DNA of 64,000 nt, taken from contig NW_025964257.1 of NCBI RefSeq assembly GCF_023055435.1, positions 2,356,001 through 2,420,000 on the forward strand, read 5' to 3'. Both the position numbers and the translations under genes were made by a program. The stretch comes from Haliotis rufescens (taxonomy: Eukaryota). Under the pieces are notes generated by a model. The model was given only the letters and a program-made list of their open reading frames with translations, searched no databases and had not been told where the DNA came from. This document shows, in pieces, positions 538-38,917 of this stretch (position 1 is its first letter; every line of letters begins with the position of its first letter).

Positions 538-3500
538 TTCCTCTGAGCAGTGTTACCAAGGACCACTACATCTGTCTCCTGTGTCGCTGTCTCCAACCCA
601 CCGCCGTCCACGACGTTGTACAGAGACGGGATCAGTGTGGCCACCAGCCCAGCAGCAGTAGAGGGATACACTGGCTGGACAGCCACCATCAACTACCAGC
701 TGACAAGGCACCAGTAGGAACTCCCTGTACTACTGCCAGGCATCCAACAAACAGACTACTGTCAACTCTACCTATTCCTATCCGGAAAGTAAGCAATTTT
801 ATAAATGACAAAAACATAACCATAACCTCGCCAAAACATCATAAGTACACTGGATACATTGACTGATGCCGATGATATTGACACCAATACAAAGGACTGT
901 ATGATATTTTGTTATATAATGTATTTTCATATTAACTGCATCGTTGAATTCACTTTCTATGCAGTTGCTGTCAGCAGTGTGTCTCTAACAACCATCACAT
1001 CCGCCAACCAGGAAGTTGGATCTGCTGAGGGTCAACCGCTGACCTTGACCTGTGTGACCTCGGCCAGTTACCCTGCTGCTACTGTCACGTGGTACAAGAA
1101 CAGTGTTGAGGTAACAGTGGGGATCTCCAGTAGCAACACCGTCACATCTGGAGTGGCTGTCCAGGCAACCAGTGCCGTGACCTTCACCTCTGTGGTGAGG
1201 TCAGACCTGGGTCACACAGTCTACTGTAGAGCCACCAACATCCACACCCCCTCCCTAGTACAGTCTGACAGTGAACAATGAAAACTTGACAAACTGAACC
1301 GTCAAGTTCAAATGGAAATTGCATGGTGCACTGTAAAGACAAGTTATGTTAGAAGATATTTGTAACTATTGAAAGAACCAAAATATTTGACACTCGTCAA
1401 ACCGACGAATATGGTATTGCACAACTGTTTGAACAACACAACATTGTAGTTATACACATGATATTACTATATTGCAGACGGACCAGAACAAGTTGGTTTT
1501 ACACAGTCAGACAACGCTGTAGCTTTCGAGAAAAGAAACCTGACCTTGACTTGTACTACCACTGCTTATCCCAACCTGACCTTCACCTGGGACTACAGTG
1601 ATGGAACCCCTGTAGGTGGCAGCACGGGGCCTGTGGCAGGATCTTCGACCCGGTGGTCCCAAACTCTCACCTTCAGGCCAAATAAAGACAAGACTGCTGT
1701 GAGGTGTAAGGTCAGAAACACCAGTACATCAGCAACTCAGGCTGGTTTTGCGTCTCTGGAAGTCAAGTGTGCGTTTTCAAAAGTGTTGCCAATATATTAA
1801 TAGAGTTTCAGATTTGCATTTAAAGTACATTTGAATGTTTTAGATCATAGATAAATATAGGGGGACAGCAGAGTGATACATAAAGAGGCTATTATCACTG
1901 ACTCTTACATGGACGGTGGATACTGTTCGACGAAAGGACTTGTTTTGCAAACTTATCATGGTTGTTTCAGACCCACCACCTGTCCCTCCTTCCATCACAA
2001 AGTTTCAGACTCTGATGTTTGAAGGAGACCAAGAGACAATCATCTGCTCGGTGACAGGAGGAAATCCTCTAGCTACTATCACGTGGTCCTGTCCAGGCAC
2101 TGGATCAGCATCGGTCAGTGACAGTGGTCAGACCAGGACATCTACCCTCTCCTTCACTGTCAGCAGGAGTCAGAACGGTCAGCAGTGTCAGTGTCTGGGG
2201 GCGTGGCAGTATGGGGGATACAACCAATCTGATGTCAGGACCTTCAGTGTCAGTTGTGAGTATCTCAAACTGTTTCTGGAGGGATTGATGGGTACAATTG
2301 GTAACTCCACATCATTCGGTTAAGAATGGAGTATAAAGCCTGTCTGATGTAAATGACACCTCCTTTGTCACACGGACAAAATACAAAACTATGTATTCAG
2401 TAAACATGAAGTCAATACTTTTTTCATGTGATACTCATTTTATACTGCAGGTCCCACAAACCCACAACCACTCAATGCCGAATATAACATGGCAGGTGTA
2501 ATAGCAGGAAGCACAATAGGAACCCTCCTTCTTACCTTGCTGATTGGAGGACTAGTTCTGATTGTCCTCTATAGGAAGGGGTTCAGGTTTGGGAACGTCT
2601 TGAAAGGTATGTTGTTGAATTTCATTTTGGTGCTGCGATATCTCATTTGAATGTGCCGTCAAAAGATATACATGAATGATATGCGTTAAAGTAAAAGTTA
2701 CCCAGGAATCTAAATCATCACTGACTCAGAATGAGCACATACAATTTAGGAATGTATATGAAATTCATAATAATATAAGAAATATGCACTACAGTTTATG
2801 TTCAGTCATTTACGTTTTACATTTCATATTTTCCATTTGCAACATGTTCCACATGTTCCGTCATTTGTAATGTTTGTATTACAGCATACTATAAAATGAA
2901 TCATCTTTTTTTCAGGATCTGCTTAACCAAAAAGGTATACACAATGTATGAATTAAACGTTTTTAAATAAGTTCTTTTGTAATAAGATAAATGTCCTTTA
3001 AAATCAGAAAAGAATCATATGTTGAAGATGTTCCTTTCCATTATACATTGCCATAAACGGACCTCATGTTACTTTTGTAGGATCAGACATCCCGAAATTG
3101 AAGAAATGGAAAACATTGGTTATTCATCCTTGGGTAGGTTGAAGTCAGCATTGCTGGTCGGAGGATTAGTTTGGTCACAAACATGCCTGTGCCGACTCCG
3201 CGCTGAAGCCGTATTAATCGTATTCTGATTTGTTGCAGATCAGATCAACAGTCAAACTCAGTACTCAAACATGGATAGAGAGGTGTCGGAAAAACAACAT
3301 TACACACAGTTGAAGATTTATGAAAATACAAACGGTAAATGGATAATTTGACGTTCTATATACAATAGCAGTTCTCACTCGTACACTCAGTGACGGCACT
3401 GCCCGATTATCGGCATGCGAGTAAACGTTTTGTTACGTTTAGACGAGTCTATGACATATAAGTTCTTTGGAAATGCGTTACCAATCATATTTTCAGTCGA

Positions 3501-6995: not shown

Positions 6996-9900
6996 ACTGA
7001 TACATTCACATCCGGAAAAAAACAACCCGTATTCAATAACAGACCGGATCTTCATCCGCAGTCACTGTGGTCGACAAATGATACTATTGTAGTGTTACCT
7101 ATTCACTCAAGCTGCAACGCGAATGTGGTCTCAATGTTTACTCGGGTGTATTTATAAACCAGGAAGTAAATATCACATTATGAGGGGTGGCCAGCTGTCA
7201 ACCCAGGTATAGGAGAACGTATTCAAGGAGGGACAGCCCTGCCACAAAGGTGAGACAATATATTGGGTCATGCTTCAAACACACACATTTTCAGATAGTT
7301 TAACCAGCGTTTAACAAAATCTAGACTAATTTGCTTGTGTACGTTTAGCAGCATGGATTCCTAGCTTCCCATAGGCAACTACTTATATTGATATTCAACA
7401 CGCCTTACAGCACAGATAATAAGGTGCTATATATAACTAATGCTGATCTGTCATTTGAGTCAATAACTCCACTGGGAGATCAGTAAGGACGATGTAATCC
7501 GAGACTCAGGGGTAAAGTTTAAGACGACAGCAGTCAATGTTTTTGTTGTAGTTTGAAATAGGTTGAAATGGTACAAAGTTACAGTAATCACGTGACAGAA
7601 ATCACACTGGGTCCGATTGAACAATGTTCCAGGTGCGGAGACCCGCTCTGTCCTTACTACAAGTTGACGTTTTTGGTGGTGGTGCAGGCGGCCGCAGCCA
7701 ACGCCGGGTCTAGCCGTGCAAGCTGTCCGCCCCTGTGTGACCCATGTACATATAGATATGTAAGATCCGGAGACCTAGGGAGGTGTTAACTGACAGTAAT
7801 AAATCACGCTTTGGATTAAGGGTTTTGGAGGCGATGTGCTGAATATTTGCTGTGTACATTAAATAGACAAACGAGATGGAATGTCGGTGCACTTTGGAAA
7901 CAAATACTGAAGCAATTAGGTAATCATTTAGGTATGTTTGATCAATGAAATATTAAAGAAACCTATGGTTTCCACAATGACAAATACATCAAATGGATTT
8001 CCCTTTCGTATATGCCAACTTACTTCATGATCAGCTACTCATACACTTGATCCGTTCAGCAATATTCAGATGCATGGATATCATTAGGAACGTTCATCTT
8101 TCACAAAGGACACCAGATTGAAAAACTATATATGCACATATTTCATCAAGTAAAAGAAACTAGCCACACTTCTCTTAATTCAAGGTTATACACTTATTGA
8201 GTTTTAGTGTTTTAAACCCGCTTTCAACAGAAGTTCAGTTATATCAGGGCATGTCAGCTCACAGTGTAAAGATCCGACGTGACGTAGATATCACACTGTA
8301 CCACTTAAACACCACGAGCACAGGCATGGTTCTGAGAAAACAAAAGTCCTAATGCGAATGAATTTTGGATTCGAACGTGTCATTAAAGGATGGAGACATG
8401 CTCACTTTATACTTTCACAACTTGAAGATATCTGCCACTTAAAGAAGTTATGAAGAAAAATTTAAAACAAAATTATTCATTCATACAAACATGCAACTTC
8501 ACTATTCTTACAAGGCACAGGTAAGAACCCTATCAGATTATAACTAAATGTGTAAGTCTCGAGATGGAAATGTGTACTATTCTTTAGCAAAAAAATATTA
8601 CCTTTTCAGAACACTCCTATCAATGGCGTCCCTTCCTAACGCGGCAACGATTTTGCTTGCAGTTAGCTTCATGAAAGGTATGTCAGGCTTAACATTAAAT
8701 GACCCACTGCACATGTATTATCAATTAAAATTGTTTTGGAACCCAACTTGCATTCTCTCCAGAGTAAAAGTCTTATGTGAGAGTGTTCCGTGTTTCCGTG
8801 TTTAGCTCCAGATGTTGATGGGGCAGTGACAGTATCCGGGTCAGGAGGTACAGGGATACCCAACCAGCAGGCTCTGACACTAAGATGCAGCTACACTGTG
8901 ACATCAGGGGATGTTGTTACTTCATTCGCATGGAGGAGGCTGGAGGGCAACTCTCCGCAGTGAACATAGTCTCAGGTTCAGTGACTCCCCAGAGAGCTGT
9001 GTTCTGGGACTCCTGGGGGAACAAGGGCGTGTTTGTTGGTGACTACACCTCCTCCCTGGACATCCAGCTGCATGCCAGTCACGTGACATCCAGCTATGCC
9101 GGGACATACAGTTGTCAAGTGAGTGGACTGTCAGGTTCTGGACGAGTGGATGTCACTGCCTCTGTGTTGGGTAAGTATATGATGGACATTATTATGGATA
9201 GAAGGGGCAAGGTTGACCTCCAGGATTACATGGACCATATGCATAGATGTCATTGCCTCTGCTGTGGTGTATGTATGTTATTATTATGTGTGTGTGTGTG
9301 CGTGTGTGCGTGTGTGTGCATTGGTATTATAACAGAAACATTGTTGGGGCCATTTGCCACATTTATCACAAATCAAAAGGTGCAATTTATGTCTTTAAGT
9401 AGCATGTTATGTGTACACAGTTATCATTGTGTAAGTGCAAGAACTGTTTAATTGTTGTGGGAACTGAAGGAGCTGTATTCATATGAGACACGACATGTGA
9501 AATGAATATTGAAACAAACAGGTGTCCCATCAATATCTGGTCTGCCGTCCATCTACCGAGTGATCGAGTCATCCCGTCTCAATGTGGACTGTAGTACCTA
9601 CACCACACCAGGCAACCCTCCAACAACAAGCTACACCTGGACCTATGGTTCTACTGTCAGTGCTGGGGCTGTACTTGATAGAAGCAGAATCAGCAGGAGT
9701 CAGGGAGGAAACTACACCTGTACTGCCAGCAACACTCAGGGGTCAGACTCGGCCTCAGTCAATGTGGATGTACAGTGTGAGTAATTGCAAAATCTTCTCC
9801 AAAATGTAATTTATTATGATATTATACTAATGAATACAATTATTATCATTATTGTATAATTTGTATTTTGAACAAATCATGCCATAACAGTTTACATAAC

Positions 9901-10744
9901 AGAGTGTTAGGAGTCATGTATGATTTACTGTAGAATAACAAGTGAATTTACATGTATTTTGCTAAAACAGCAGTCATTTTAATATCGCTTATGGATTTGT
10001 AATTTCCACCTTTCAGATGTTCCTTCTATATCCGGACTACCACCAGTTCAGACTGTCACAGAGTTCTCTAATCTAAGGATAGACTGTAGTACCTACACCA
10101 CACCAGGCAACCATCCAACAACAAGCTACACCTGGACCTATGGTGGTTCTACTGTCAGTACTGTGGCGGTACTTGATAGAAGCAGAATCAGCAGGAGTCA
10201 GGGAGGAAGCTACACCTCTACTGCCAGCAACAGTCTGACACCAAGTGGGGGATCTCAACAACAGGGGACAGCAACAGCACAGGTCAATGTGGACGTTCAA
10301 TGTGAGTCACGGATTTGCATGTGAATTTGTTACAGACAGACTCATGGGATACCAAATCCACATTTCGTATTTTGTTTCAAAGGATTATGATCCGTCTGTG
10401 ACCTAGTTTGACAGTATCTCTGTTTAAATCAGAAGCCGAGGAAACAGTATTTGTAGTTGTGTAACAATATGACAGTTACAATATCTAGGTTATCATGGCT
10501 ACCAATAGCAGGTAAAATACATGTATAACAATCGTGTTTACTATGTAAATGCAGACAATTCACTCATTCACAATCCAAATTACTCACAAGTCTCTTCACG
10601 GGCGGAAGAACTCTCAACCATGTATGGTGACATGCTGTATGCTATGGTGCCTAACAAACTGTCAAGCACTTTTAAATTGTCCTAAGACAACTCAGAATTA
10701 CCGCACTAGGATAACAACAGTTTCTGTGTGTTCTTGCTACCATA

Positions 10745-11038
10745 GGGGGCACGGGTGGCCCAGTCGTCTAAGGCGCCGCGATTTGCTGTGCAGAGTTGCG
10801 TCCCTTGGGCGCGCCAGAAACCTATGATTGTGGGTTCGAATCCCGGTTCGCCCCGATTATGTTTCTAGGTTTGTCAGCACCATACCCATGCTCGTGGGTT
10901 TCACCAAAGTGGTAAACGTCTAAGACCTGCATCACTTCGGGCTTTCCTCCCGCATTAAGCTGACACGCCGTGATTTAACTGGAATACTGTTAAAAGCAGC
11001 GTTAAACCCAACTCACTCACTCACTCACTCACTCACTC
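10745..11038 (+). mobile_element. tRNA-derived SINE, family 1 (~290 bp, (CACT)n tail)
   Basis: Pol III A box (tggcccagtcgtctaagg) and B box (ggttcgaatcc); tail ttaaacccaactcactcac; homologous to 48828-49106 and 62456-62728. Confidence 0.85.
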
Positions 11039-12701
11039 TTGCAACCATATGCACTGTTGTCTTTGACAAACTCCAAAAACACTCTCTTCAAAAAGAAGAA
11101 AGGCAAAGCCAGATTTGTTAGAGATAGGAAAATACATTTATACGGTACAAGGTATTGAGCCAAAATGTTGTGGAGAGAACACTTGGTGATTGTGGTCGGT
11201 ACATAGGAAATTCCAAGGACAGTCAGCTACCATCAATAAGGCAGATGTCCCCCGTTGGAATCGATGGCGGCCTGGCATCCTTCTGCCCATGGAAGAGATG
11301 GATTGCATGTCTTTGTTGTGATCATTTTGATCCGGGAAATTTGTCACTGATACATTTACATATTAAACATTTAAAAACAATAGTGATGGTTTACTCATAT
11401 AGAAAGATTGTATGTAGAATTATTCTTTCTTATGGAAATTTGTTTGATGTCAAGTACAAAGATGTTCCTGTATTGCAATTTGAGCATATATATGCTTATG
11501 TTACCTCTCCTTTTGATTAAATAGTTTATTCCGCGTTATAGTTGGTTGTTGTATGGCTGTCAGTGTAAACATGAAGTCACAGGTACTAAATGAAATTGTG
11601 TAATACATCCCTCTAGGTATGAAATAGTCATATACAAATCTAAACTAGCGCTAGTATTGTGGTAAAAAAGTCCGTTGGGGAAGTTCGTTTCATAAAACCA
11701 GAGATAGACAGATTAACATGTTAGAAATGTGTAGTACATTATCAGTGTCTTTTTCAAAATCCTAAAAGGGTATCTGTGGATATGCTACATTTAGTTTCTT
11801 GCGGCTTTTCTAGGGTACAATAGTACAAGGACATTCATATCCATATGCACTACTCAACACTTAAATGTGGAAGTGCATGTGTTGAATTCAGTTATGGAAC
11901 TCTTGTTTCTTTTCATACTAATCCATACACATGTCCACTCCAATGTAGAGACTATACCCTACATGTCAATACTGTAATGGGTTATATTTTCAGATCAGGC
12001 CAGTATAAGTATGTTTACTGCCAACTCACTCAGCGGCATATTGACAGTGAACGAGTCTGATCCGGTGACCTTGAGATGCCAGATTGATAGTAACCCAAGG
12101 TCAATCATCAGATTACTGAATGGAACTGAGGAGTTGACAAGGGCAGATAACTCCATGACAGCAGAATATAGACTGGAGTCAGCAGACTGTAGACAAAGAG
12201 GGAACTACTCCTGTACTGCCACTAACAGCATTGGGTCAGCCAGAGGGTGGAGTTGCTAGTCAAATGTGAGTAATCACTCAGCAGATCCGGTGTACTCACT
12301 GTAGAGTTGTAATTATTGCCATTTACTAACTCTTGCAGGCTGTTATTGAAAACAAATGTATTGGCTGTGTTAGGCTTGTATATTGTGTTCCCTTTTGTCC
12401 AATGTTAATTCTGCCTTGCATAAAAAACAAATATCATTACTGGCATATTCAACTAAAAAGGTCAAACTCTCGTTTAAATGGATACAAAAATGCAAAAGAA
12501 GATAATCTTGGAACTAAGGGATTATGCTCCGCCCAGTTGTCGAGCAAAGAAGGTCTGATTCAAGTCATTCATAACTCACAATTTGTTTGGTCTTCTTACT
12601 GATATGTTATAATGCATACTATTCTAAGTACACAATGTATCTATTTGACACTGATACATCGTCTTTGTCTAAACGTGATATTCACGTGTTGCAACTATGA
12701 C

Positions 12702-13928
12702 TACGATGGCTGGTCAAAAAGTTCTGAGCAGACTAAATTTCCTCTAAGAGCTAAACAAAGTGAACAAATCAATTGTTTAATTGAACACTGTTTGTGTTGT
12801 TCATTGCATGTGTGTCTGGTCTGTTGAGGCTGGTTGTATATGTGTGACAGCCAGTCGAACGTGATAGGGGTCCAAATTGACTCATCAAAGGGAAAGATCG
12901 AGTACCAAGCAGTCATCATGTTTTTTACCTGAAATTCATGACCACATGTTACAAGTGTATGGGGATAAGTGCGCTAGCTATACCACAGTTAAACATTAGG
13001 CAGCTATGTTTAAGGCTAACAAGATAACAAACCTTGATGATGACCCTTGGTCTACCTCAACGTACATGTACCTCTACTTACATCAATGAAGATTCAATCA
13101 AGGAGATAGGACGTATTACAACTGCTGAACTTGAGGCAGACTGAGGTCTGTGCCATGGATCCATTGAAACTATTATTCATGGATATTTACAAATGAATAA
13201 GTTCTGATTTAAAGGAAAGAGCAACTGACATTGCCAGAGAATATTTAGAGCTAACGTTGGAGGATTTCGTCAAATTCAAAAAGACATTACTAAGGGGTGA
13301 TGACACTTGGGTCTACCACTATGGTCCCTAGTCAAAACGTCAATCCATCGAATGGCTCCATTCCACTTCTCCAGCACAAAAGAAATTCAAGATCAGTGAG
13401 GAAAGTTAGAACCACTGTATTCTGGGATGCAAAGGGTGTGATCTTTGTTTATTCCAAGTCAAAGGCGATTACAGGTGCCTAATATGCTGACTTGCTTCAT
13501 TGCCTGTGAAACTCTGTCAAAAAAAGCGGAGAGGAATGCTGACTGCTGGAGTTCTACTACTTCATGACAATGCGTCTTCTAACACTTCTCCACTTGCAAA
13601 GGCTGCTGGGCGACAATCTGGGTTCGAAGAGCTTCCTCACCCTCAATATTCGCCAGACATTGCACCAGTTAATGCCACTTGTTTCCTAAACTGAAAGAAC
13701 ATCTTGGTGGAAAGTGCTATGACGACATCTATGACCTCAAAACTGCCGTGAATTATTTTTTCTGGGTGGCTTCAGAAAATGTCTTCCTGACTGGAATTGA
13801 AAACTTCACTATCGATATGAGAAGTGTATTGACAAGCAGGGAGATGATGTTGAAAAATAAAATTAAAAACACATTTACAATGGTTGGTTATGTTTGTCTG
13901 TCTTAAAACCTTTTGACCAGCCCTCGTA
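12702..13928 (+). mobile_element. Mariner-family DNA transposon, full-length but degenerate, in a gene B intron
   Basis: TIRs TA|cgatggctggtcaaaaagtt and aaccttttgaccagccctcg|TA with TA target site; broken transposase motifs GDDTWVYHY, LLLHDNA, ELPHPQYSPDIAP, FPKLKEHLGG. Confidence 0.9.
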
Positions 13929-16900: not shown

Positions 16901-17171
16901 ATTTGTTTTAGATGCAGTCAACACTCCGGCTCAGTACACAAGTTTGGAGGAAAAGGCACAAGATAAACAAAATTACTCACAGCTGAAGATTTATGAGAAC
17001 ACGAAAGGTAAATGAGCCGTTAACATTTATAATAGTATTGAATGTCCAGTATTGCAGTATGTTACTGTCAGATTGGTACTGACAGCATTGTAAACATCGT
17101 ACTACAACCAAATCCGAATTGAAACATGAAAATGAAAATATTACTTTCTGAAGAGTATGTATGTACACACA

Positions 17172-18578
17172 TACTCTTCAGAAAAAAGGTAAAGAAGAAA
17201 GTAAGGAATACTCGGAAACAACTTACAGATTCCAAAATTGTAAGAGGTATCAGTTTTTAGTATTACTTGTATCATTATAATGAACGAATTGTGAACATAT
17301 TACACACATGTATGACAGCCGATGCTATGACTGCCAACGAACGATCTAGAAGAACGATAGAGGTGAGATGGGAAATTTCAAAGTTGACGTTTTTGGATCA
17401 GTAGTGCGTAATACGGCCACAATTTGTCAAACATTCATTCACTCGACGAGGCATACTGCGTATGAATGTCCTTAGGGCGATTTTGGGGAGTCTGACCCAC
17501 TCCTCATGCAGGACCTGACCAAGTTCAGCCAACGTGGTTGGCGGCCTTTAATGTTGACGCGCACATGTCCCTATAATGTCCCAGACGTTTTCAATGGGGG
17601 AAAGGTCTGGATTCATTGCTAGATGTTGTGTTGCTGAAGGTGAACACTGACGATTCGTGCGCGTCGAACACGGGAGTTGTCGTCCTGAAAGCACAAACGT
17701 CGACCCACACGCCTTGCAAACGGGACAACAAAGGGTGTCAGTATGGTGTCCAGATAGTACTGTGCAGTGACCCTTCCTTGCACAATGTGTGGTGGGGTTC
17801 GGTCAGTCAAAGTGATGCCACCCCCGACACCAGAACTGATCCACAGCCAAATTCCCCATGAGGTCTCATGTTGACATTATCTTGACGAAAACATGCCACA
17901 TGACCAGCGACGATTACCCCAGTTTCGACATTGTGTACACCATTGACATCTGTTGGCAATATGACGATTTGTAAGGGGCGGCACAACACGTGGCCGCCGA
18001 GCATGGAGCATGGAGCATCTGTACGAGCATCTAATCGTCTGACCCGTAACTCGTCGCTAGAAGCCTGGTGAAAGTTTGCACCAATCTAATTTGCCGTTTG
18101 AGGTCGATTTTGTACTCTTGTCGTTGACCAGGGACTCCCTAAAGGGGTCGATCGTGAACATTTTCGGTGTGTTAATATCTGTCCCATTGTCTACTAATCA
18201 CAGACTGTGAAACATTAAACATATTGCCCGCTGCACTTTGACTTCTGCCAGTTTCCAGCATGCCAATAGCCCGTGGACGCTCCGTGTGTTGCAGATGCCT
18301 CGTCGCTATATCATACCCAAACAATGAATGAAATCAAGTTAATCACAACTGTAAGATAAGCAGAATCAATCAGATTGACAGACGTAATGAAAGTGTCACA
18401 AGCAGGAATGACAAGCTACGCACGTGTGTGGGACTACTGCCTGCGGCACCTGCAGACTATCTGATGTGTTTGGGAACAATATTTTAAAGACATGAACGGT
18501 CTTGCATAGGTCTTTGTTATAGAACTTACAATTGAGATTTAAATTTCATTATCCCCTACGTTTTAAAAGAATATGTAT
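17172..18578 (-). mobile_element. Tc1-family DNA transposon remnant in a gene B tail intron
   Basis: Minus-strand peptides VTAQYYLDTILTPFVVPF...FQDDN and PDLSPIENVWDI; degenerate TIRs catactcttcagaaaa and ttttaaaagaatatg. Confidence 0.8.
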
Positions 18579-18818
18579 ATATATATTTCATATAAACAAT
18601 CATATATCTCCCAGAAGATGCTCCAGCAGATACGAGTACCTATGAAGGCATGGCAGAGACTCCCCCTGTGACCTATGAATCCATCAACGCATCTCCGGAC
18701 CAGGACAGTGGCGGTCAACCACGTGGTAATTAATCTTTGAATCTCGTAGCACTGTGACTATCTTTAATCTTACATCATTCTCAAACTCTGTGCTTGTATG
18801 TTGTACAATCTATTCAAA

Positions 18819-19628: not shown

Positions 19629-19699
19629 ACAAATGACTATAATCACCTTTCAATTGAAACAGCTGATTTGACGGTAGCACCCTGGAAGCTATTATTAAT

Positions 19700-27337: not shown

Positions 27338-27377
27338 ATGAAGATAGCTCCTGCTGCTCTGCTTTATGTCATTGCAG
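27338..27377 (+). CDS. Gene C signal-peptide exon
   Basis: MKIAPAALLYVIA, then G|gtgcgt (phase 1). Confidence 0.75.
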
Positions 27378-30300
27378 GTGCGTCATGTGCAGTGATTGTA
27401 TATGTTTACTTATTAACTTGTTCTTCTGTGCGACATGGGTACAATGTGTGAAGCCCATTTCTGGTGTCCCCCGCCGTGATATTGCTGAAATATTGCTAAA
27501 AGCGGGTAAAACCATACTCACTCACTAACTATTCTTCTGTGTAGTGATGATTGACGATTTAGCAGTATTTACATCAGATAAGAGAAGATCTTGTTTATGC
27601 ATCACAAAAGGTCAAACAGACAGAACATGACTCCACTTGGTGTAATGTACGGTCATACCACATGCTACATGCTACATATCTTCTTCCTGCAGGTGTTGTA
27701 TCAGGTGCCCCCAGTGCCAGTCCAGTGTTGTCTGCAGTGTCTGACACAGCCAGGTTCAGCTGGGAGATTCCACAGGGAGGGCTGGGGCCAGACAGTAGTT
27801 TCTACACTGTCACTCCTGCTGGTGTCACTGTGTTCATAGTGTTTAGTGATGGGACGTTCATCCCACTCCCCAGCTACAGAGACAGACTTGTGTACCAGGG
27901 GAACACAACGCCCAGGAATGTCACCTTCACCCTCAGCAACATCCAGACATCTGATGCAGGGACATACACGTGTGGGAATGGAGGGACTACTATCGTGATA
28001 CAGAACTGTGGACAGAAACTTGTTGTTCTTGGTGAGTGGCTATTTAACCAGTTGCTGTTTGGTGTGCGATGAAAATAGATTAGCCCTCTGAATATTCAGA
28101 AACATATTCAGAGGAAAGATAAAATGCATGTATAATCTTGACTACATGTATGTGTTTGATCACACCTGTCTAACAATGTAACATGATCAAAATCGTTGAA
28201 AAATATTTTTAGACTTCCTTCTGCTAACAAGGACTATCTGTCAATCTAACCGATTATCAAATTCATATTTTTCAAACTTTACTCATCCATTATTCCTGGA
28301 ATTCTATATACGTACATAGGTATGTAAATCCATGAAAACATATCACTAACTTATGTTTGCTTCCATCAGTAATAAAAAATCTAAATGACAGTGAGGTACT
28401 ACTCAGGGATACAGTTGATGTATGTTTGTATTTAACTTGCCGTGAATCTACGTCAAACTATCTTGTCTAGATATTGGTGGATCACAATACATTGTTCATC
28501 TCAGATCAGCAAGATAAGAACTCGTTTACGCTGAACACTACGGTACCACACAAACAATGTTTTAGGGCATTGAAATCCTTATTTTAATAAAAATACATCC
28601 ACTAGAACATTTGTAAACTTAAACAACATTTCATCATGTACTTTTCGACAGGGCGTGTCCTGATCATGAGACGAGACGTCACAACATCAGATCTCGAACA
28701 CAAACTCGCCAATTGATGAAAACAAACTGAGTGTAGTGAGTGAGTGAACACTATTGATGTGGGATGACATCTTTCCCACTTTTGTGAAATCCACGAGGAC
28801 ATGTGTGCTGCCATCAAACAGAGAATCATAAACAGGGTGAATCGTGGATTCGAACCCACGATCATCTCTTCTAGCACGCCTGGATGGCGTCAGCCTGAAA
28901 GAGAATTGTGTTCCTGGTATCTAATGAGTCTCATTGTGTATGACCCTGACAGAGAATTGTGTTCCTGGTATCTAATGAGTCTCATTGTGTATGACCCTGA
29001 CAGAGAATTGTGTTCCTGGTATCTAATGAGTCTCATTGTGTATGACCCTGACAGAGAATTGTGTCCCTTGTATCTAATGAGTCTCATTGTGTATGACCCT
29101 GACAGAGAATTGTGTCCCTGGTATATAATGAGTCTCATTGTGTATGACCCTGACAGAGAAATGTGTCCCTTGTATCTAATGAGTCTCATTGTGTATGACC
29201 CTGACAGAGAATTGTGTCCCTGGTATCTAATGAGTCTCATTGTGTATGACCCTGACAGAGAAATGTGTCCCTGGTATCTAATGAGTCTCATTGTGTATGA
29301 CCCTGACAGAGAATTGTGTCCCTTGTATCTAATGAGTCTCATTGTGTATGACCCTGACAGAGAAATGTGTCCCTTGTATCTAATGAGTCTCATTGTGTAT
29401 GACCCTGACAGAGAAATGTGTCCCTGGTATCTAATGAGTCACATTGTGTATGACCCTGACAGAGAATTGTATCCCTTGTATCTAATGAGTCTCATTGTGT
29501 ATGACCCTGACAGAGAATTGTGTCCCTTGTATCTAATGAGTCTCATTGTGTATGACCCTGACAGAGAATTGTGTCCCTGGTATCTAATGAGTCTCATTGT
29601 GTATGACCCTGACAGAGAAATGTGTCCATGGTATCTAATGAGTCTCATTGTGTATGACCCTGACAGAGAAATGTGTCCCTGGTATCTAATGAGTCTCATT
29701 GTGTATGACCCTGACAGAGAATTGTGTCCCTTGTATCTAATGAGTCTCATTGTGTATGACCCTGACAGAGAATTGTGTCCCTGGTATATAATGAGTCTCA
29801 TTGTGTATGACCCTGACAGAGAAATGTGTCCCTGGTATCTAATGAGTCTCATTGTGTATGACCCTGACAGAGAATTGTGTCCCTTGTATCTAATGAGTCT
29901 CATTGTGTATGACCCTGACAGAGAAATGTGTCCATGGTATCTAATGAGTCTCATTGTGTATGACCCTGACAGAGAATTGTGTCCCTGGTATCTAATGAGT
30001 CTCATTGTGTATGACCCTGACAGAGAATTGTGTCCCTGGTATCTAATGAGTCTCATTGTGTATGACCCTGACAGAGAATTGTGTCCCTTGTATCTAATGA
30101 GTCTCATTGTGTATGACCCTGACAGAGAATTGTGTCCCTGGTATATAATGAGTCTCATTGTGTATGACCCTGACAGAGAACTGTGTCCCTGGTATCTAAT
30201 GAGTCTCATTGTGTATGACCCTGACAGAGAAATGTGTCCCTGGTATCTAATGAGTCTCATTGTGTATGACCCTGACAGAGAATTGTGTCCCTGGTATCTA

Positions 30301-33300
30301 ATGAGTCTCATTGTGTATGACCCTGACAGAGAATCGTGTCCCTGGTATCTAATGAGTCTCATTGTGTATGACCCTGACAGAGAATTGTGTCCCTGGTATA
30401 TAATGAGTCTCATTGTGTATGACCCTGACAGAGAAATGTGTCCCTGGTATATAATGAGTCTCATTGTGTATGACCCTGACAGAGAATTGTGTCCCTGGTA
30501 TATAATGAGTCTCATTGTGTATGACCCTGACAGAGAATTGTGTCCCTGGTATCTAATGAGTCTCATTGTGTATGACCCTGACAGAGAATTGTGTCCCTGG
30601 TATATAATGAGTCTCATTGTGTATGACCCTGACAGAGAAATGTGTCCCTGGTATATAATGAGTCTCATTGTGTATGACCCTGACAGAGAAATGTGTCCCT
30701 GGTATCTAATGAGTCTCATTGTGTATGACCCTGACAGAGAATTGTGTCCCTGGTATCTAATGAGTCTCATTGTGTATGACCCTGACAGAGAAATGTGTCC
30801 CTTGTGTCTAATGAGTCTCATTGTGTATGACCCTGACAGAGAAATGTGTCCCTGGTATCTAATGAGTCTCATTGTGTATGACCCTGACAGAGAATTGTGT
30901 TCCTTGTATCTAATGAGTCTCATTGTGTATGACCCTGACAGAGAAATGTGTCCCTTGTATCTAATGAGTCTCATTGTGTATGACCCTGACAGAGAATTGT
31001 GTTCCTTGTATCTAATGAGTCTCATTGCGTATGACCCTGACAGAGAAATGTGTCCCTGGTATCTAATGAGTCTCATTGTGTATGACCCTGACAGAGAATT
31101 GTGTCCCTTGTATCTAATGAGTCTCATTGTGTATGACCCTGACAGAGAATTGTGTCCCTTGTATCTAATGAGTCTCATTTTGTATGACCCTGACAGAGAA
31201 ATGTGTCCCTGGTATCTAATGAGTCTCATTGTGTATGACCCTGACAGAGAATTGTGTCCCTTGTATCTAATGAGTCTCATTGTGTATGACCCTGACAGAG
31301 AAATGTGTCCCTGGTATCTAATGAGTCGCATTGTGTATGACGCCTAGTTGGCGTCACCCTGACAGAGAATTGTGCCCTTTGTATCTAGTGACCAATATGC
31401 CCTGCGCTGATGACGACACGGTTTATTTACATCATGGTAATCACTTTGGGACGCGAATTGCACCGTTATAGATGAAATGGGCATCTCGAACCCGTAAATT
31501 TCTGCAGTTCAAGTTAAAGTTGTAATAGTCAGCCTTTTTACGAATAGGAGGGGATGCAGTTTGTGGTTGGGCAATTCACGTTTAAAAATCATAACACGTC
31601 AACGAGACAATACAGCTCGAGGAAGACCGGGGTTTGGCTCTCCAATTGGATGAAATATGAGAAGCCCATTTTTATTACGCCCTTGGTGTTGTTAGAGTTA
31701 TATTACTTAAGTAAGCACACAAACACTCACTTGCGCATTCACCCACTAATTCACTCACTATAGATCTCTTATTTATATATTAAACCGTAAGAACAATGCT
31801 TCTAAATTCTAAATTCTAAATGATCTCTTTCAAAAGGCAAGCCGACAACACCTGTCCGTCCAGTGTCAACAACTCCAGTGTACAACCAGCAAGTGACCTT
31901 GACCTGCAGCTCCACCTCTACCACTGTCCCAGCTGACCATGGCCTGACCTTGACCTACATCTGGCAGCGTGACAGAACTCACATCACAGTAACCTCCCCT
32001 GGTTCCCCCTACACCTTCAGAGTGAGTTCCCGGGACAGTCACAGCTACAGATGCAGAGCCAGAGAAAGTCAGGGTCTGGAGTCAGAGTGGAGCCAGGGGT
32101 ACAACATGGAGCCTCAGTGTGAGTACAGCCCACACATTACCGAATCCCGTAATGCTCAATCATGGTTAGCCAAACTAATAATAATAAAACATAATTAGTA
32201 ACATTAAAAACTGCTTTTTTCGACGAAACTGGAAGGGAGTGCCAATGACGTTTTGTTAGTTATATAAGGCTGTTCGCATTCCATTGGTAGCTCAGGGATC
32301 TACTAAATTAATTTGTTTCTCACCCACAGGTAAAAAATCATTATGGGTCTATTCTTGGTCGACAGCTGATCAATTCGATTGGGTGCTGATCGCTGGAACG
32401 TAGGCGTCAGTAGCACATTGCAAATAAACACAAAGTTCACCCAGCTAACAGACGGATGACCTACTCTTAACATTCACGAAAGTAGACATAAAATGCAGTC
32501 ATTTCAAAATTCCCGGTATTATTGACATATGTATTTGAATTTGTCCTTGGGTTTTTGCAGTCGACTATATATGATCTTTAGCAGGACATGAGAACACATA
32601 GGCTTGAAATGGAGAGGTACACGGACACGATTTAATGCAGTATTACAAGTATTGTTGCAACATAACGCTTCAGAGCATCACCAATAAACAAAACTTTAGC
32701 GTCAAACCATCATCACACCATTCAACAAACTTACTTCTTTGAACTTAACTTTGCAAATAAGAGTAGCCCCTATGGACAAAATGGACGGCTAGAAATGTCA
32801 ACCGATGCAATCCCCAGTCTTAGCGCACCATTAATCACAATCAGTTCCTTTACTTATGAGAAAGCTTCTGTGGTCCAATGGACAGAACGCCCGCCAGAGA
32901 TCGGAAGGTCGTTCCATTCCCGAACGCGCCCCACCAAAATACGCTACAAAATAGAACTTGTTCTTACCACGCCTGACGCTCGGCATTAAGAGGCTCAAAC
33001 AAGGACTGGTCGGCTCAGGGTCGGTATACTGTGTCTGAGTGGAGTATTCTTCTTAAATTGCAGCATCTCAGTGGGCTAGCGCTATACACACTGCATTTGT
33101 CCGGACTAGTTCAACCAGACACACACACACACACACATGTGCCTTCACGTCATTATAGTGCAATAGTCCTCAAACCACGTTTCACCTCACCTCATAACTT
33201 ATAAACTACCTGCTGACTCGTGTAAAATCGCACAGGCAACATGACAAAAGTGACTGATTGATGCCTCGATCGTGTCTCGGGGACTCCTCGCATACACATA

Positions 33301-36300
33301 ACCGAGTTTGATACCATGCGTCTATATTTTCCTGTTGACTGGTGGTGTTAGTGTTGATGATATTATTAAGTTATTACAGAATCTGCAACTTATCATTTCT
33401 TGCCGTCGACCTCTGAGAAAGCTGAGCACTACACATTTCTAGGCTATACTTTTTGTTTTCATTTTGTTATAATTAAATTTTCGTTGTGTTCATGGAAATT
33501 CCTGCATTTTGATTAGCTGAATTGGTCACGTGTTATTGCATTCATTTCCCAATGAATGTAAAAAATTAAGCCACGCCCACCGCGGCGCACTACTTTTATT
33601 ACTTCGGAATGTCGGGGAATCCCAATATTACAGTCGAGGGAATTCCCTTTCTGCTCACGTGTATCGTCATGCACAGGACATTTAGCGACTTTCATGCATA
33701 TTCATTTTCCAAACAACCCTTTGAAACCGAAGGCCGAAAACGAATGAAACAGCAAACGTGCAGGCTCTCTCGCCTGTTTTTGTCCCCGCTCGTCTCGGTT
33801 CAACTTTCATGTCTTCGGGTTTCATTTCTAACTAGCATTTCTCTAACTGAGTTTTACCGTAATCAGGAAGTAATGTTTGAATCACGCAGTAAATGACCAT
33901 GTTATTTGAAACAGCCGCCTTCTCTCGGTCGACATATTTCTTCCGGTTCGTTACAGTCTGACTGTTGCAGTTCTTTTTGCCTCTTGCCTTAATTGACAGG
34001 TCTAATGAACATTGTTTTAATCCCACTCTCCGTTGATTGGCTACTGACTGTGTAGGCGTGTCAAGTTATGTGCATAAATTAAACGATCACCTGATTCATG
34101 TCACGCCACTGTATATATTCCTACACCTGGAATGTTTATCAATGTCGTCATTTTTGTCTGTTTTGATATATGCAACTGTTTTGGGTTAAACTATTGTAGA
34201 TAAAACATGTTTAACGTTGTCGAATTTAATTATAAGCATTGACCGTATATTTTTTTCGGTTCATTGAGGTATGAATCGAAAAACCGACGTGCAAACTTTT
34301 GTAAGAATCCGCTACGCGGATTCATACAGTTTGCACATCGGTTTTTCGATTCATACCTCAATGAACCGAAAAAAATACACAGTCAATCCTTAATTCAAAG
34401 TAATTTTATGAATATCATCAACTCATCATTGTTTTCCACATGTGTGTTATTAGAGGTATAATTATATCTTTTATCACGGTATCAGTGTCTCAGTGCCATG
34501 TATTCCAGACGGGCCCTACCAGATCTCCCTGACCCCCTCCATCTCCTCCTACACTGTGACAGAACACCAAGCTCTTCCATCAATCACGTGCTCCGCCATC
34601 TGTAGACCCGGATGTACCTACAGATGGTTTCACAATGGAACAGCCTTCAGCAGTGGAGCCGTGCTCCAGGGACAAGCTGACAGATCTAAGACAGGCTCCT
34701 ACAGATGTCAGCCTTCCAACACACACGGGAGTGGTGACAGTGTTACAGTCAGTGTCGATGTTCAGTGTAAGTATATAGTCCACACTGGTGACAGTGTTTC
34801 AGTCAGTGTCGATGTTCAGTGTAAGTATATAGTCTACACTGGTGACAGTGTTACAGTCAGTGTTGATGTTCAGTGTAAGTATATAGTCTACACTGGTGAC
34901 AGTGTTTCAGTCAGTGTCGATGTTCAGTGTAAGTATATTGTCTACACTGGTGACAGTGTCACAGTCAGTGTTGATGTTCAGTGTAAGTATATTGTCTACA
35001 CTGGTGACAGTGTCACAGTCAGTGTTGATGTTCAGTGTAAGTATATAGTCTACACTGGTGACAGTGTTACAGTCAGTGTCGATGTTCAGTGTAAGTATAT
35101 AGTCTACACTGGTGACAGTGTTAAAGTCAGTGTTGATGTTCAGTGTAAGTGTATAGTCTACACTGGTGACAGTGTTACAGTCAGTGTTGATGATCAGTGT
35201 AAGTATAAAGTCTACACTGATGACAATTTTACAGTCAGTGTTGATGTTCAATGTAAGTTTATAGTCGATAGCGTCAATGTTCAGTTTTAAGTTTAGCACG
35301 CTATACTCATGGCATTTGTGTTTGGCGTCTTTCTAGGTTAATATTGTGGATAAACGTATATGTTCTTAAGCACTCTCTTTAAAAAATACCTGTGTTAGCG
35401 CATGCGCTAACTGTCACACATTTACTATGGTATACTCTTCAAGCAAGTCCCATGTACAGCCAATACCTTCCGTGACAAAGATACAACGAGTTATATTTAT
35501 TTTTTCAGACCCAGCAACTGTAATCATGTTCACCGTCAACTCACTCAGCGGTACATTGGCAGTTAACGAGTCTGATCCGGTGACGTTACGATGCCAGGTT
35601 GATAGTAACCCAAGGTCAGTCATCAGATTACTGAATGGAACTGAGGAGTTGACAAGGGCAGATAACTCCATGACAGCAGAATATAGACTGGCGTCAGCAG
35701 ACTGTCGACAAAGAGGGAACTACTCCTGTACTGCCACTAACAACATCGGGGCACCTGTCAGCCAGAGGGTGGAGTTGCTGGTCAAATGTAATCTGTTTGG
35801 ATATTCTATACGGATGGTAGTATTGATGGTTTATGTCGCAACTTTGTCTATGATAATAACACTGTTGAGTAAATGGCCGGCCCTCGGTATGCATGCATAC
35901 TTGTGTTATCATGTCTCTAATGTTGATACTGCAAAGTTGAAGTAACAACGAAAGGCTCCTGATAAATAATTCTAAATACTCCATACATTTAGTCTTCATA
36001 ATACTAAACGGAGATTATTTGTTCCAGAGCCATTGCATATGTTGTCTACATTTAACTAGGTTCTCCTCGACTTGATGAGACAGCTGTCAAGCAACTCAAA
36101 TACGCCTCTAGACTGGGTGGTAACGTGAACGTGTCTGTGTCAGTCCTGGCCTACCCCCTTCCTACATTCACCTGGAGTAGAACCACCAGCACCAGCCAGG
36201 ACCTCACTGGTTCCTCCATCCCTGTCTCCGCCATCTCGGTCACTGCCAGACTACACCTTACTAACCTCCAACAGCAGGACTTCGGGGACTACAGTCTCAC

Positions 36301-38917
36301 AGTCAACAACGGTGAAAGCAGTTCAGTGACATATACAGTCAGCATAGTGTCTGAAGGTGAGCCGCGATATTCTGATTTGTTCATATGTTTCAATACCTAT
36401 CTCTGACTGTTGTTTAACAATTGCATCTTCATTGTACAAATAAAGAGCTTAACATTACAGCATTCTCTGATAAAGCTTTTACAGCATTCCTTTTCATATT
36501 AATTTGTTGTCAGGGCCACCAGATGTACCTACACAGTTTAGAGACCTGGATAATGCAACAACGTCGTCGGTATGGTTATCATGGCTGCCTGGTTTCAATG
36601 GTGGACACCCTCAGACGTTTCTGCTTGAGCATCTCAAGTTTGCTACAAGAACTTGGACTGTCTACAAGACCTATGCAGACACCGGCAAGATGATGGTGGT
36701 GGAAGTGACTGGGCTTACACCAGGAGATATTCACATATTCCGACTACATGCTAGAAATGACTATGTGGATTCTAACAGATATGTATTTGTAGAAACTAGG
36801 ACTGCTGGAGGTATGTGTCACTCAAGTAGACACAAATTGTTTAATCTGATAATCAATTAACAACTGATCACCATAAAATTTTAATATATAAGCATATGTT
36901 TTATTTGGAAGTTCTACTTTTTCCTTGTTTATGTAGACAAACATAACTCATCTTCTTTATATTTTAAGTAATTTCCCATTGAGAAGTACTTCAAGTAATG
37001 TTCCTTATATCTATTCATTCAACGTGAAACTGTGTATCTGGGTTCGAGCCAATGAGTTGTGACCTACATATCTGTTAACAGTTGCAGCATCAATAACACC
37101 AAACATTAGGTAATATATAATATTAAGAATCTTGAGCATGTTGTTAATGCGTATGCACAGAAATGTCAACATTGCCCATATTAGGGCATATGTCAATATT
37201 CATGCGCAACCAGATTTTGCAACCCGTTTCAGTTTTGTCTGTCAACGAACGAAAGTTGTTATGTATTTACTCTTGAATATATATTTAACGTGGGTAATGA
37301 AAAATATACCTCACTGATTCTTATAAGATACATATTTTACGAAACTCGTGAACTTTCTGTGATATTTGACCTCGCTTTCGCTCGGTCAGATAACATAGAA
37401 AGTTTCGTAAAAAAACTATGTAATGTTTGTAGTACTCTCTATTTGCCAACCAATCACAAATTAGTTTGTTTGAGAGTAGGAACCTGGAAATGAATACACT
37501 TTCACCTGAATAAAGTGACATACGCGGATAAGCACTCGTCTGTGATGATATTTTGTTTATTTTATAGATCCACCCAATCAACAAAAACTCGAATCTCCAT
37601 CTTCGCATGCAGGGGTAATAGCAGGATCCACAGTCGGAGGCATGCTTCTTACTATGCTCCTTGAGGGAATTATTCTGATCGTACTGTACAGAACAGGCTA
37701 CAGGCCTAGGATCGGACATATTCTGAAAGGTATTTAGTTAAATTTCTATTGTAAAATTATTGTCAACAGGAATAATTTCATTATGATGTTCCATGCGTTT
37801 GAATGTATAATTGTCAGGCCTAGGATTTCCTAATCTGCATTGATATTGACAAAAGGATACATTTGAACCAACAAATGTTTGATTAAAGGTTGTTATTAAT
37901 ATATTTATATGCAGTCATTTAAAGTTGACTTTATTCTTGCACTGAAGGTTTCTTTCGTGATTGACGAGTTTTGTTGTATGTGTGACGTGTTTTTTACATT
38001 ATGTACCATGTGGCTATTTTTGTTTTCCAGAAACTGCATTACGAAAAAGGTATTATAAATGTCAAAGTTAAAGATAACAATGAACGGAACATTTGCAAAA
38101 AAATAAACAAGATAAGTTGTCAAAATAAGACAACTAAAAACAATATTGCATACTGAAGTTAATCGCTTCATTATATTATGTTTTTTTAGAAACCGACCTT
38201 ATTATTTTTGCAGCACCAGGAATCCTGAAACTGTAGAAATGGACAACATAGGGTATTCATCATTAGGTTAGTACTGTTTATTGGGTTTCCCTTTTGTTGA
38301 TATTACTATATATATGGGTCCGTTTAACACTGAAATCATTACAATGTTTTCACATTGTTTTGTTTCAGATCAGATAAATGTCCCAGCCCAGCATTCAAAT
38401 GTGAAGGAATCAGAAAAACAACCGTATTCACAGTTGACGATTTATGAGAATACAAAAGGTGGATATAGATTTTGCATTTTGCTCAATACTGTTTAATTTT
38501 AAGTATTCCAGTGAAGGTAATATTGACGTGCCAGTAAGAAGAAGAGAGTTATGATTTGGATTTGTTGTTAAATACGTAATGAATTACATCTTCAGCGGAT
38601 GCTGCAGCAGGTACAAGTACCTATGAAGGCATGACAGAGACTCCCCCTGTGACCTATGAGTCCATCAGAGCATCACCATACCAGAACACTGGAGCAAATT
38701 CTCAAGGTAACCAAAACATGAAACACTCTTGCTGGTTGGAATCGTATGTCATTGCCATGGACGAAGCATTAAACAGATGCATATGCCTTCTTTTCTATCC
38801 CAATGTAACACGTTTAGCACGTCATGTTATTGTGAGTGATATGAAATCTGTCATATAATCTGTGTTTAATTACATGTAGTTCTATACTTTTCAGGTTCTG
38901 ACCATGACAATAAGTAA
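27338..38917 (+). CDS. Gene C: apparently intact IgSF type-I receptor, SP-5xIg-FN3-TM-multi-Tyr tail (~749 aa); nephrin/sidestep/CD22-like architecture
   Basis: join(27338-27377,27693-28031,31837-32118,34509-34766,35509-35787,36060-36356,36514-36810,37568-37729,38031-38049,38214-38266,38369-38458,38596-38706,38895-38917) = 2250 nt, all GT-AG, no internal stop found. Confidence 0.85.
27693..28031 (+). CDS. Gene C exon: atypical V-set Ig domain
   Basis: ARFSW...YRDRL...FTLSNIQTSDAGTYTC...NCGQKLVVL; cag|...G|gtgagt. Confidence 0.9.
28894..31388. repeat. 51-bp minisatellite, about 48-49 units, in gene C intron 2
   Basis: Unit cctgacagagaa(t/a)tgtgt(c/t)cct(g/t)gtat(c/a)taatgagtctcattgtgtatgac. 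Confidence 0.97.
31837..32118 (+). CDS. Gene C exon: Ig domain 2 (C2-like)
   Basis: GKPTTP...VTLTCSS...YIW...YRCRARE; aag|...T|gtgagt. Confidence 0.9.
32862..33190 (+). mobile_element. SINE family 3 copy
   Basis: Similar to 22713-23035 (cgctcggcattaagaggctcaaacaaggactggtcggctcag). Confidence 0.75.
34238..34388. repeat. ~150-bp near-perfect palindrome (MITE-like)
   Basis: Arms ttttttcggttcattgaggtatgaatcgaaaaaccga and tcggtttttcgattcatacctcaatgaaccgaaaaaa around the centre gaatccgctacgcggattc. Confidence 0.9.
34509..34766 (+). CDS. Gene C exon: Ig domain 3
   Basis: YGPYQISLTP...ITCSAICRPGCTYRW...GSYRCQPSN...VSVDVQ; T|gtaagt. Confidence 0.9.
34733..35290 (+). repeat. 54-bp tandem repeat (10 units) spanning the exon end and GTAAGT donor
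   Basis: Unit ggtgacagtgttacagtcagtgtcgatgttcagt|gtaagtatatagtctacact. Confidence 0.95.
35509..35787 (+). CDS. Gene C exon: Ig domain 4
   Basis: VTLRCQVDSNPRS...GNYSCTATNNIG...VELLVK; paralog of 11994-12265. Confidence 0.9.
36060..36356 (+). CDS. Gene C exon: Ig domain 5 (I-set-like, no B-F disulfide)
   Basis: VSVLAYPLPTFTW...LHLTNLQQQDFGDYSLTVNN; paralog of 14480-14776. Confidence 0.9.
36514..36810 (+). CDS. Gene C exon: fibronectin type III domain
   Basis: GPPDVP...SVWLSWLPGFNGGHPQTF...VTGLTPG...FRLHARN. Confidence 0.9.
37140..37420. mobile_element. Interspersed non-autonomous repeat with internal hairpin; inverted copy at ~52070-52335
   Basis: tcatgcgcaaccagattttgcaa.cc.tttcagttt.gtctgtcaacgaacg is present in opposite orientation at 52240-52296. 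Confidence 0.7.
37568..37729 (+). CDS. Gene C exon: transmembrane segment
   Basis: AGVIAGSTVGGMLLTMLLEGIILIVLYRTGYRPR; homologous to the TM exons of A, B and D. Confidence 0.85.
38031..38917 (+). CDS. Gene C cytoplasmic tail, five small exons
   Basis: ETALRKSTRNPETVEMDNIGYSSLDQINVPAQHSNVKESEKQPYSQLTIYENTKADAAAGTSTYEGMTETPPVTYESIRASPYQNTGANSQGSDHDNK*; same exon layout as A and B. Confidence 0.85.

What the first reader, a model, noticed from the sequence alone, without database searches (positions are those of the whole stretch)
3081..38917. Multi-tyrosine tail with paralog-specific loss of motifs
Seen: A has IGYSSL, TQYSNM, HYTQL, IYENT, STYEDM, VSYESI, PYQNS and DYGNK (8 Tyr). B has IGYSSL-x8-YTSL-x9-YSQL, YENT, YEGM, VTYESI and YGNI, with Tyr7 changed to Asp (7 Tyr). 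C has Tyr2 and Tyr8 changed to His (6 Tyr). Established: I/V/L/SxYxxL/I is the ITIM consensus, YxxL-x6-8-YxxL the ITAM spacing, YxxM the PI3K p85 site and YxN the Grb2 site. B's YSSL-x8-YTSL fits an ITAM, and in C the Tyr-to-His change destroys that pair while leaving two ITIMs. Inference: paralogs could be tuned toward activating or inhibitory output, as in paired receptors.
Basis: partly seen in the sequence, partly recalled or inferred. Interest (0 to 1): 0.7.

Follow-up and report, generated by a model that had tools for sequence, protein, structure and literature searches.

The report
Abalone receptor cluster with optional tyrosine
This is part of a cluster of over thirty abalone cell-surface receptor genes whose inner tails keep six tyrosines almost unchanged but repeatedly lose one, which likely shifts them between activating and dampening immune signals, although two of the three copies first flagged are broken genes in this assembly.

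Summary
The motifs are where stated, in spliced tails of Ig-superfamily receptor genes of red abalone; 33 tail copies lie in 1.05 Mb of this contig. But the three-gene comparison is weak. A carries two ectodomain indels and a stop before all eight tyrosines; B has two frameshifts; only C is an intact 749-aa frame. C's Tyr8-to-His is clade-wide, not C-specific.

Across 68 tails from four abalone species, Y1 and Y3-Y7 change 0-3 times each (non-Tyr mean 6.7), while Y2 changes 11 times, like its spacer neighbours. Substitutions are therefore not enriched at tyrosines; one site is optional. Y2 decides whether an ITAM spacing exists: 28 of 43 C-type tails have it, 0 of 19 A/D-type. The V domain varies mainly in CDR-like loops, and the genome has Syk-, SHP2-, SHIP- and p85-like SH2 exons.

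Verdict: a likely immune-type receptor cluster evolving by birth and death, with class-level signalling differences. Tuned pairing is plausible but untested. I found no description in the searchable literature; analogues exist in Hydractinia, Botryllus and oyster.

The parts
533..2311 (+). Gene A ectodomain exons inside the window (Ig, C2-set, Ig, Ig; signal and V exons lie just upstream of the window; no FN3). 5-nt gap after 556 and one extra base at ~705 break the frame
2451..2606 (+). Gene A transmembrane exon
2916..2934 (+). Gene A 19-nt micro-exon with in-frame TAA at 2924-2926; the only one of 38 copies with a stop here; reads TCA in contigs of 4 of 4 runs laid
3081..3827 (+). Gene A tail exons (3081-3133, 3239-3334, 3497-3607, 3805-3827), 8 Tyr, Y2 = YSNM, no ITAM spacing
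8623..15939 (+). Gene B signal, V, four Ig, FN3 and TM exons; frameshifts at ~8951 (+2) and ~12234 (-7)
16337..20166 (+). Gene B tail exons (16337-16355, 16775-16827, 16912-17007, 18615-18725, 20144-20166), 7 Tyr, YxxL-x8-YxxL-x9-YxxL, Y7 is Asp
27338..38917 (+). Gene C, intact 13-exon frame of 749 aa: signal, V, four Ig, FN3, TM, tail
27693..28031 (+). Gene C V-set exon; variation among 13 sister exons is concentrated in CDR-like loops
37568..37729 (+). Gene C TM exon with mid-membrane Glu (37663-37665) where most C-type sisters have Gly
38031..38917 (+). Gene C tail exons (38031-38049, 38214-38266, 38369-38458, 38596-38706, 38895-38917): Ile at Y1-2 (38248-38250), His for Y2 (38392-38394), Val at Y2+3, His for Y8 (38903-38905)
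50271..64000 (+). Gene D, fourth paralog (A/D class, no FN3); its tail lies beyond the window and has Asn for Y2

Best explanation
These are tails of a tandem family of abalone Ig-superfamily receptors that likely act as phosphotyrosine docking scaffolds in immune-type recognition, with six fixed tyrosines and one optional one (Y2) whose presence creates an ITAM spacing. Shown: exon structure, at least 33 copies on this contig, strong conservation of Y1 and Y3-Y7 in four species, repeated loss of Y2, class-level difference (ITAM spacing in most C-type and all three B-type tails, in no A/D- or E-type tail), loop-focused V-domain variation, and several disabled copies including A and B. Inferred: ligand binding by the V domain clusters receptors, Src-type kinases phosphorylate the tail, Y1-Y2-Y3 would dock Syk, YxN sites Grb2, YxxM p85, and Y6 (with Y1 and Y3 when Y2 is absent) SHP2 or SHIP. 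Y2 loss would lower activating output, but it arises at about the background rate during birth-and-death evolution rather than by targeted substitution.
For: 68 tails, 4 species: changes Y1 0, Y3 1, Y4 1, Y5 3, Y6 1, Y7 1, Y2 11, non-Tyr mean 6.7; spacer columns 0-14, most 5 or more. Motif zones dN/dS 0.22 vs 0.54 elsewhere in the tail. Strict ITAM: C-tail 28/43, B-tail 3/3, A/D 0/19, E 0/3. V fold is V-set (Z 12.8, rmsd 2.2, 108 aligned; pLDDT 71.5); CDR-like pN 0.255 vs framework 0.042. SH2 exons whose best PDB matches are Syk, SHP2, SHIP2 and p85. Early stops or frameshifts in A, B and three more distinct tails. Oyster ITAM receptor binds Syk and oyster ITIM receptor binds SHIP2 (PMC6994640, PMC11841013, passages).
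Against: No binding, phosphorylation, tissue or challenge data. CDR-like pN/pS is 1.3 with bootstrap 0.88-1.98, so positive selection is not shown. Every class keeps both ITIM-like and YxN/YxxM sites, so tails are mixed, not clean opposites. Y2+3 is V or M in 7 of 35 C-type tails that keep Y2, so the strict ITAM is not fixed. The acidic residue at -3 of the oyster ITAM consensus is absent (Asn at Y1-3 in 32 of 32). Within this genome alone Tyr columns are not significantly more conserved than random columns (P=0.14). Nephrin-like adhesion receptors also carry multi-Tyr tails (recalled).
Confidence: 0.6

Rival explanations
1. True paired-receptor system: selection repeatedly converts activating copies into inhibitory ones by removing Y2, sometimes together with an ITIM-type residue at Y1-2 and a transmembrane Glu, as in gene C.
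For: Y2 lost 6 times in the C-tail clade (to His, Phe, Asp or deletion) while Y1, Y3, Y7 never were and its direct neighbours changed once each. His-Y2 tails are shared by one red-abalone gene and two H. cracherodii genes. C has 8 private amino-acid changes and 1 silent one, 3 at motif positions. TM Glu occurs in 16 ITAM-less vs 4 ITAM tails of 62 scored.
Against: Y2 pN is below pS; other spacer columns change as often; independent-pair tests give p=1 with 1 and 3 supported pairs; C's V domain is no closer to an ITAM sister (76-82%) than sisters are to it generally, and V is the least similar domain, unlike CEACAM pairs (PMC2832619 section 10).
Confidence: 0.25
2. Adhesion or sensory receptors (nephrin/turtle-like) whose multi-Tyr tails recruit adaptors such as Grb2, Nck or p85; ITAM/ITIM matches are incidental and Y2 is simply non-essential.
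For: NCBI names the proteins nephrin-, turtle-, hemicentin- or CD22-like; architecture V-4Ig-FN3; YxN at Y4 and Y7 is as conserved as YxxL sites.
Against: Names are automatic; large species-specific copy number, loop-focused V variation and frequent pseudogenes fit recognition arms races better; Y1+3 and Y3+3 are Leu in 31 of 32.
Confidence: 0.12
3. The A/B/C differences are mostly decay or assembly noise.
For: A and B are disabled here; the A stop is absent from 4 of 4 runs laid; a ~216-kb block is duplicated at 99.86-100% in the stretches sampled.
Against: B's Y7 loss is shared with both sisters, C is intact, and class differences recur in three other species' assemblies.
Confidence: 0.03

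Closest known systems
Hydractinia Alr family (bioRxiv 10.1101/2022.03.04.482883, passages read)
   Same: Clustered invertebrate IgSF genes with V-set, further Ig and FN3-like domains, unusual V sequence, ITAMs in some tails and ITIMs in others; Syk/SHP/SHIP present.
   Different: Alr tails are too diverse to align; here one homologous tail differs mainly at one Tyr. No allorecognition link here; homology not tested.
Botryllus fester co-receptors FcoR (PMC12582321, abstract and section 13 read)
   Same: IgSF receptors with several Tyr motifs that switch ITIM/hemITAM by substitution and by intron retention with early stops.
   Different: FcoR have Ig plus sushi domains, hemITAMs and cognate partner genes; here full ITAM spacing, FN3, and no partner family was sought.
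Oyster CgIgR (ITAM-Syk) and CgNCAM1/CgIgIT (ITIM) (PMC6994640, PMC11841013, passages read; CgIgIT only as cited titles)
   Same: Mollusc multi-Ig transmembrane receptors with Tyr motifs shown to engage Syk or SHIP2.
   Different: Single genes, separate lineages as described; no oyster protein appeared among hits to the FN3, Ig or tail queries (Haliotis only).
Vertebrate paired receptors, CEACAM1/CEACAM3 type (PMC2832619, abstract and section 10 read)
   Same: Tandem IgSF cluster, V-type N domain under diversification, copies without TM, ITAM and ITIM members in one group.
   Different: There the tails come from different exon sets and the N domain is the most similar part of a pair; here tails are homologous and mixed, and V is the most divergent part.

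Membership tests
ITAM receptor | Yxx[L/I]-x6-9-Yxx[L/I] in the cytoplasmic tail | tested here: met
   B and 28 of 43 C-type tails; not A, not C. B itself is frameshifted upstream.
ITAM receptor | Acidic residue three before the first Tyr (consensus quoted in PMC6994640) | tested here: not met
   Asn at Y1-3 in 32 of 32 tails; Asp/Glu mostly at -4.
ITAM receptor | Syk-family tandem-SH2 kinase in the genome | tested here: met
   One SH2 exon with best PDB match Syk, E 5e-14; full gene not assembled.
ITAM receptor | Phosphorylation and Syk binding | not testable with these tools
   needs biochemistry
ITIM receptor | [ILVS]xYxx[ILV] | tested here: met
   Two each in A, B, C; at least one in 29 of 32 distinct tails, the 3 without being early-stop copies.
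ITIM receptor | SHP/SHIP effectors in the genome | tested here: met
   Best PDB matches SHP2 and SHIP2 for two SH2 exons.
ITIM receptor | Phosphatase recruitment and inhibition | not testable with these tools
   needs cells
Paired receptors (CEACAM/LILR/KIR type) | Clustered paralogs with similar ectodomains | tested here: met
   C vs C-type sisters mostly 84-95% in Ig2-FN3.
Paired receptors (CEACAM/LILR/KIR type) | Ligand-binding N domain is the most similar part of an opposite-tail pair | tested here: not met
   V is the most divergent domain, 76-82% between C and ITAM sisters.
Paired receptors (CEACAM/LILR/KIR type) | Opposite motif sets in the tails | tested here: inconclusive
   ITAM present or absent, but ITIM-like Y6, YxN and YxxM are shared by both.
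Paired receptors (CEACAM/LILR/KIR type) | Short-tailed activating partner with basic TM residue (recalled feature of KIR/LILR type) | tested here: not met
   No Lys/Arg inside the 62 TM segments scored; the polar variant is Glu.
Paired receptors (CEACAM/LILR/KIR type) | Shared ligand and opposite output | not testable with these tools
   no ligand known
V-set IgSF | V-set fold of the N-terminal domain | tested here: met
   Predicted model matches antibody, TCR and nectin V domains, Z about 12; Pfam V-set E 2.5e-5, below cut-off.
V-set IgSF | Canonical B-strand Cys | tested here: not met
   C-type V has invariant Cys only at 94 and 106 (F and G strands) in 17 of 17.

The most novel reading that the evidence does not exclude
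Abalones have an independently evolved paired-receptor complex in which germline V domains diversify in CDR-like loops and are shuffled by unequal crossover, while a single tyrosine (with a Gly/Glu membrane toggle) flips the same tail between Syk-activating and phosphatase-recruiting modes.
Probability: 0.25. Interest if true: 0.75.

Novelty: new member of a known kind. Interest (0 to 1): 0.5.

Why it matters
Molluscan ITAM and ITIM signalling is known from a few single oyster genes. A cluster of 30-plus homologous receptors with a natural one-residue series (Y2 present, His, Phe, Asp, deleted) on a fixed tail makes it directly testable whether invertebrates balance activating and inhibitory receptors as vertebrate NK cells do, and gives candidate loci for disease resistance in farmed and endangered abalone. 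It also warns that A and B should not be used as the test constructs.

Tried and rejected
Enrichment of substitutions at Tyr codons: not found. Coupling of ITAM loss with ITIM gain at Y1, or with TM Glu: raw counts lean that way but independent-pair tests have no power (p=1). Y8-to-His as a C-specific loss: rejected. Rescue exon around A's stop: only two weak candidates; NCBI's model of A skips three tail exons and is fused to B (P0037). No run on record as RNA holds the A stretch ('no RNA holder listed'); the runs laid are contigs guessed to be RNA. The bin over C's His-Y2 codon had no cover in X1-X3 at 94% likeness; this says nothing for or against expression of C. B's and A's ectodomain indels were not checked against reads (both lay calls used). 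The automatic frameshift screen of 28 genes is noisy at exon ends, so only A and B are called from it. Earlier-finding look-ups by place and sequence were empty. Ten literature searches listed no paper on this cluster; most subscription journals are not searched. Grb2 was not identified among the SH2 hits (not tested). No complex prediction was run because phosphotyrosine cannot be modelled.

Full report
What the stretch is. The window is contig C479:2,356,001-2,420,000 of a 1.33-Gb genome; database proteins 99-100% identical to window exons and on a contig of the same length are named Haliotis rufescens. It holds four tandem genes (A-D) with Ig, C2-set, V-set and FN3 exons, a TM exon and five short tail exons (19, 53, 90-96, 111, 23 nt).

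Observation. All motifs and spacers quoted are present. In 10,000 shuffles per tail, having every Tyr in Yxx[LIVM] or YxN has p<=0.0001. GT..AG joints matching the modelled tail introns occur in contigs of three RNA-like runs laid on A and on C, including the micro-exon in one contig; these contigs come from the family and partly from other species. NCBI's model P0002 equals my C model at 723 of 749 residues, with an identical tail.

Two of the three genes are disabled in this assembly. A has TAA at 2924-2926, upstream of all eight Tyr, the only stop in that micro-exon among 38 copies; contigs from 4 of 4 runs read TCA there, so it is private to this animal or an error. A also has a 5-nt gap and a 1-nt insertion in its second ectodomain exon against three sisters. 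B has +2 nt in the V exon and -7 nt in the fourth Ig exon against 3 of 3 sisters. C is open over 13 exons. These indels were not checked against reads.

The family. The 36-aa fourth tail exon finds 42 places, 33 on this contig within 1.05 Mb (a lower bound). 38 of 42 have tail exons 1-4 with intact splice sites and 32 are distinct. Parsimony changes at Y1-Y8 are 0, 6, 1, 1, 0, 2, 2, 5: mean 2.1, against 3.2 for other columns and 2.2 for the +-3 flanks; neither enrichment (P 0.90) nor depletion (P 0.14) is significant in this genome alone (same on a tree built without tail letters). Pairwise dN/dS is 0.22 in motif zones and 0.54 elsewhere; Y2 has pN 0.20 and Y8 0.25 against pS 0.37, the others 0-0.08 (29 tails). 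I then added 39 tails from NCBI models of H. cracherodii, H. rubra and H. asinina and dropped three early-stop copies; models without a full tail, one divergent tail, duplicate isoforms and red-abalone models were left out. In these 68 tails Y1 is kept in 68/68, Y3 67/68, Y4 67/68, Y5 62/65, Y6 62/63, Y7 61/64, Y2 45/68, Y8 12/52; changes are 0, 11, 1, 1, 3, 1, 1, 2 for Y1-Y8 against a non-Tyr mean of 6.7. Y2 lies in a fast spacer whose columns mostly change 5-14 times. So six tyrosines are fixed, Y8 is an old clade difference, and Y2 is optional.

Classes. Mapping ectodomain exons over about 0.86 Mb of the cluster gives a C class (V-4Ig-FN3), a B class (other V, same frame), an A/D class (no FN3) and a small E class. 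Strict ITAM spacing (consensus as in the Alr preprint) is in 28/43 C-type tails, usually two overlapping (x8 and x7), 3/3 B-type, 0/19 A/D and 0/3 E. Gene C is an exception inside its class: Ile at Y1-2 (1 of 16 in this genome), His at Y2, Val at +3, and a TM Glu. A second His-Y2 tail, on a B-type ectodomain, is shared with two H. cracherodii genes. These fit a switch, but the phylogenetic pair tests have no power, and Val at +3 is common in H. rubra and H. asinina tails that keep Y2.

Ectodomain. The C-type V domain folds as V-set (pLDDT 71.5; best Z 12.8) without the usual B-strand Cys. Among 13 V exons, loops equivalent to CDR1-3 have pN 0.255 and pS 0.193, the framework pN 0.042; bootstrap of loop pN/pS is 0.88-1.98 (I set the loop limits from the model after seeing the alignment). 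C and its duplicate differ at 26 residues, 25 in V. V is the least similar domain between C and its ITAM sisters, the reverse of CEACAM pairs.

Mechanism. Inferred: V-domain engagement, tail phosphorylation, then Syk on Y1-Y2-Y3, Grb2 on YxN, p85 on YxxM and SHP2/SHIP on Y6; without Y2, Y1 and Y3 stand 23-25 residues apart, a spacing that suits SHP2's two SH2 domains (recalled). A's YSNM matches the YxNM motif of DAP10 named in PMC12582321. The genome has SH2 exons best matching Syk, SHP2, SHIP2 and p85 (4 of 47 hits tested). Oyster work shows both pathways exist in molluscs.

Comparison and novelty. All hits to three exon or tail queries were Haliotis; a V-domain profile also reached two Bulinus proteins with unrelated Tyr-bearing tails. 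Ten searches found no description of the cluster. One abalone genome paper notes Ig-domain enrichment on a structurally divergent chromosome (PMC12627906, passages); its supplementary tables, which I did not open, may list these genes. A review (PMC11999971, passages) does not mention them in the passages seen. It works like the Alr, FcoR and CEACAM-type clusters but fails two paired-receptor criteria, so I file it as a new member of a known kind, interest 0.5.

Noticed in passing
window 32701-64000 vs contig 2,657,178-2,688,457 and on to ~2.87 Mb: A block of about 216 kb is duplicated at 99.86-100% in the stretches sampled, with both ends inside C-type genes; the duplicate of C has a different V exon. 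Recent unequal crossover or two haplotypes placed in tandem.
   Followed up: partly
window 2607-3080; 37993-38087: RNA-like contigs of three runs run unspliced through the introns around the 19-nt micro-exon of A-like genes while other introns have no depth; retention would end the protein just after the TM.
   Followed up: partly
window 37663-37665 and paralogs: One mid-membrane position toggles Gly/Glu 9 times on the tree; Glu in 20 of 62 TM segments, 16 of them in ITAM-less tails.
   Followed up: partly
contig 2,106,500, 2,142,400 and 2,947,000 (L083, L086, L143): Three C-type genes with V and four Ig exons but no FN3, TM or tail hit: possible secreted decoys or truncated copies.
   Followed up: no
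contig 2,439,138 and 2,491,819 (L046, L047): Tails with stops after Y4 or after Y2; NCBI models the second with that exon skipped (P0010).
   Followed up: no
window 27693-28031: V domain lacks the B-strand Cys and has invariant Cys in the F and G strands; related V domains occur in other Haliotis genes and in Bulinus.
   Followed up: partly
P0048 (H. cracherodii): D-type ectodomain joined to a divergent TM and tail that still keeps the Y3-Y7 arrangement, suggesting an older, wider family.
   Followed up: no
window 54471-55034: DDE_3 transposase fragment in an intron of gene D; similar remnants by eye at 13.3-13.9 kb and 17.5-18.1 kb in gene B introns.
   Followed up: no
window 28800-31350, 34770-35290, 58200-58950: Intronic tandem repeats; the last two copy exon-boundary sequence of an Ig exon several times.
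   Followed up: no
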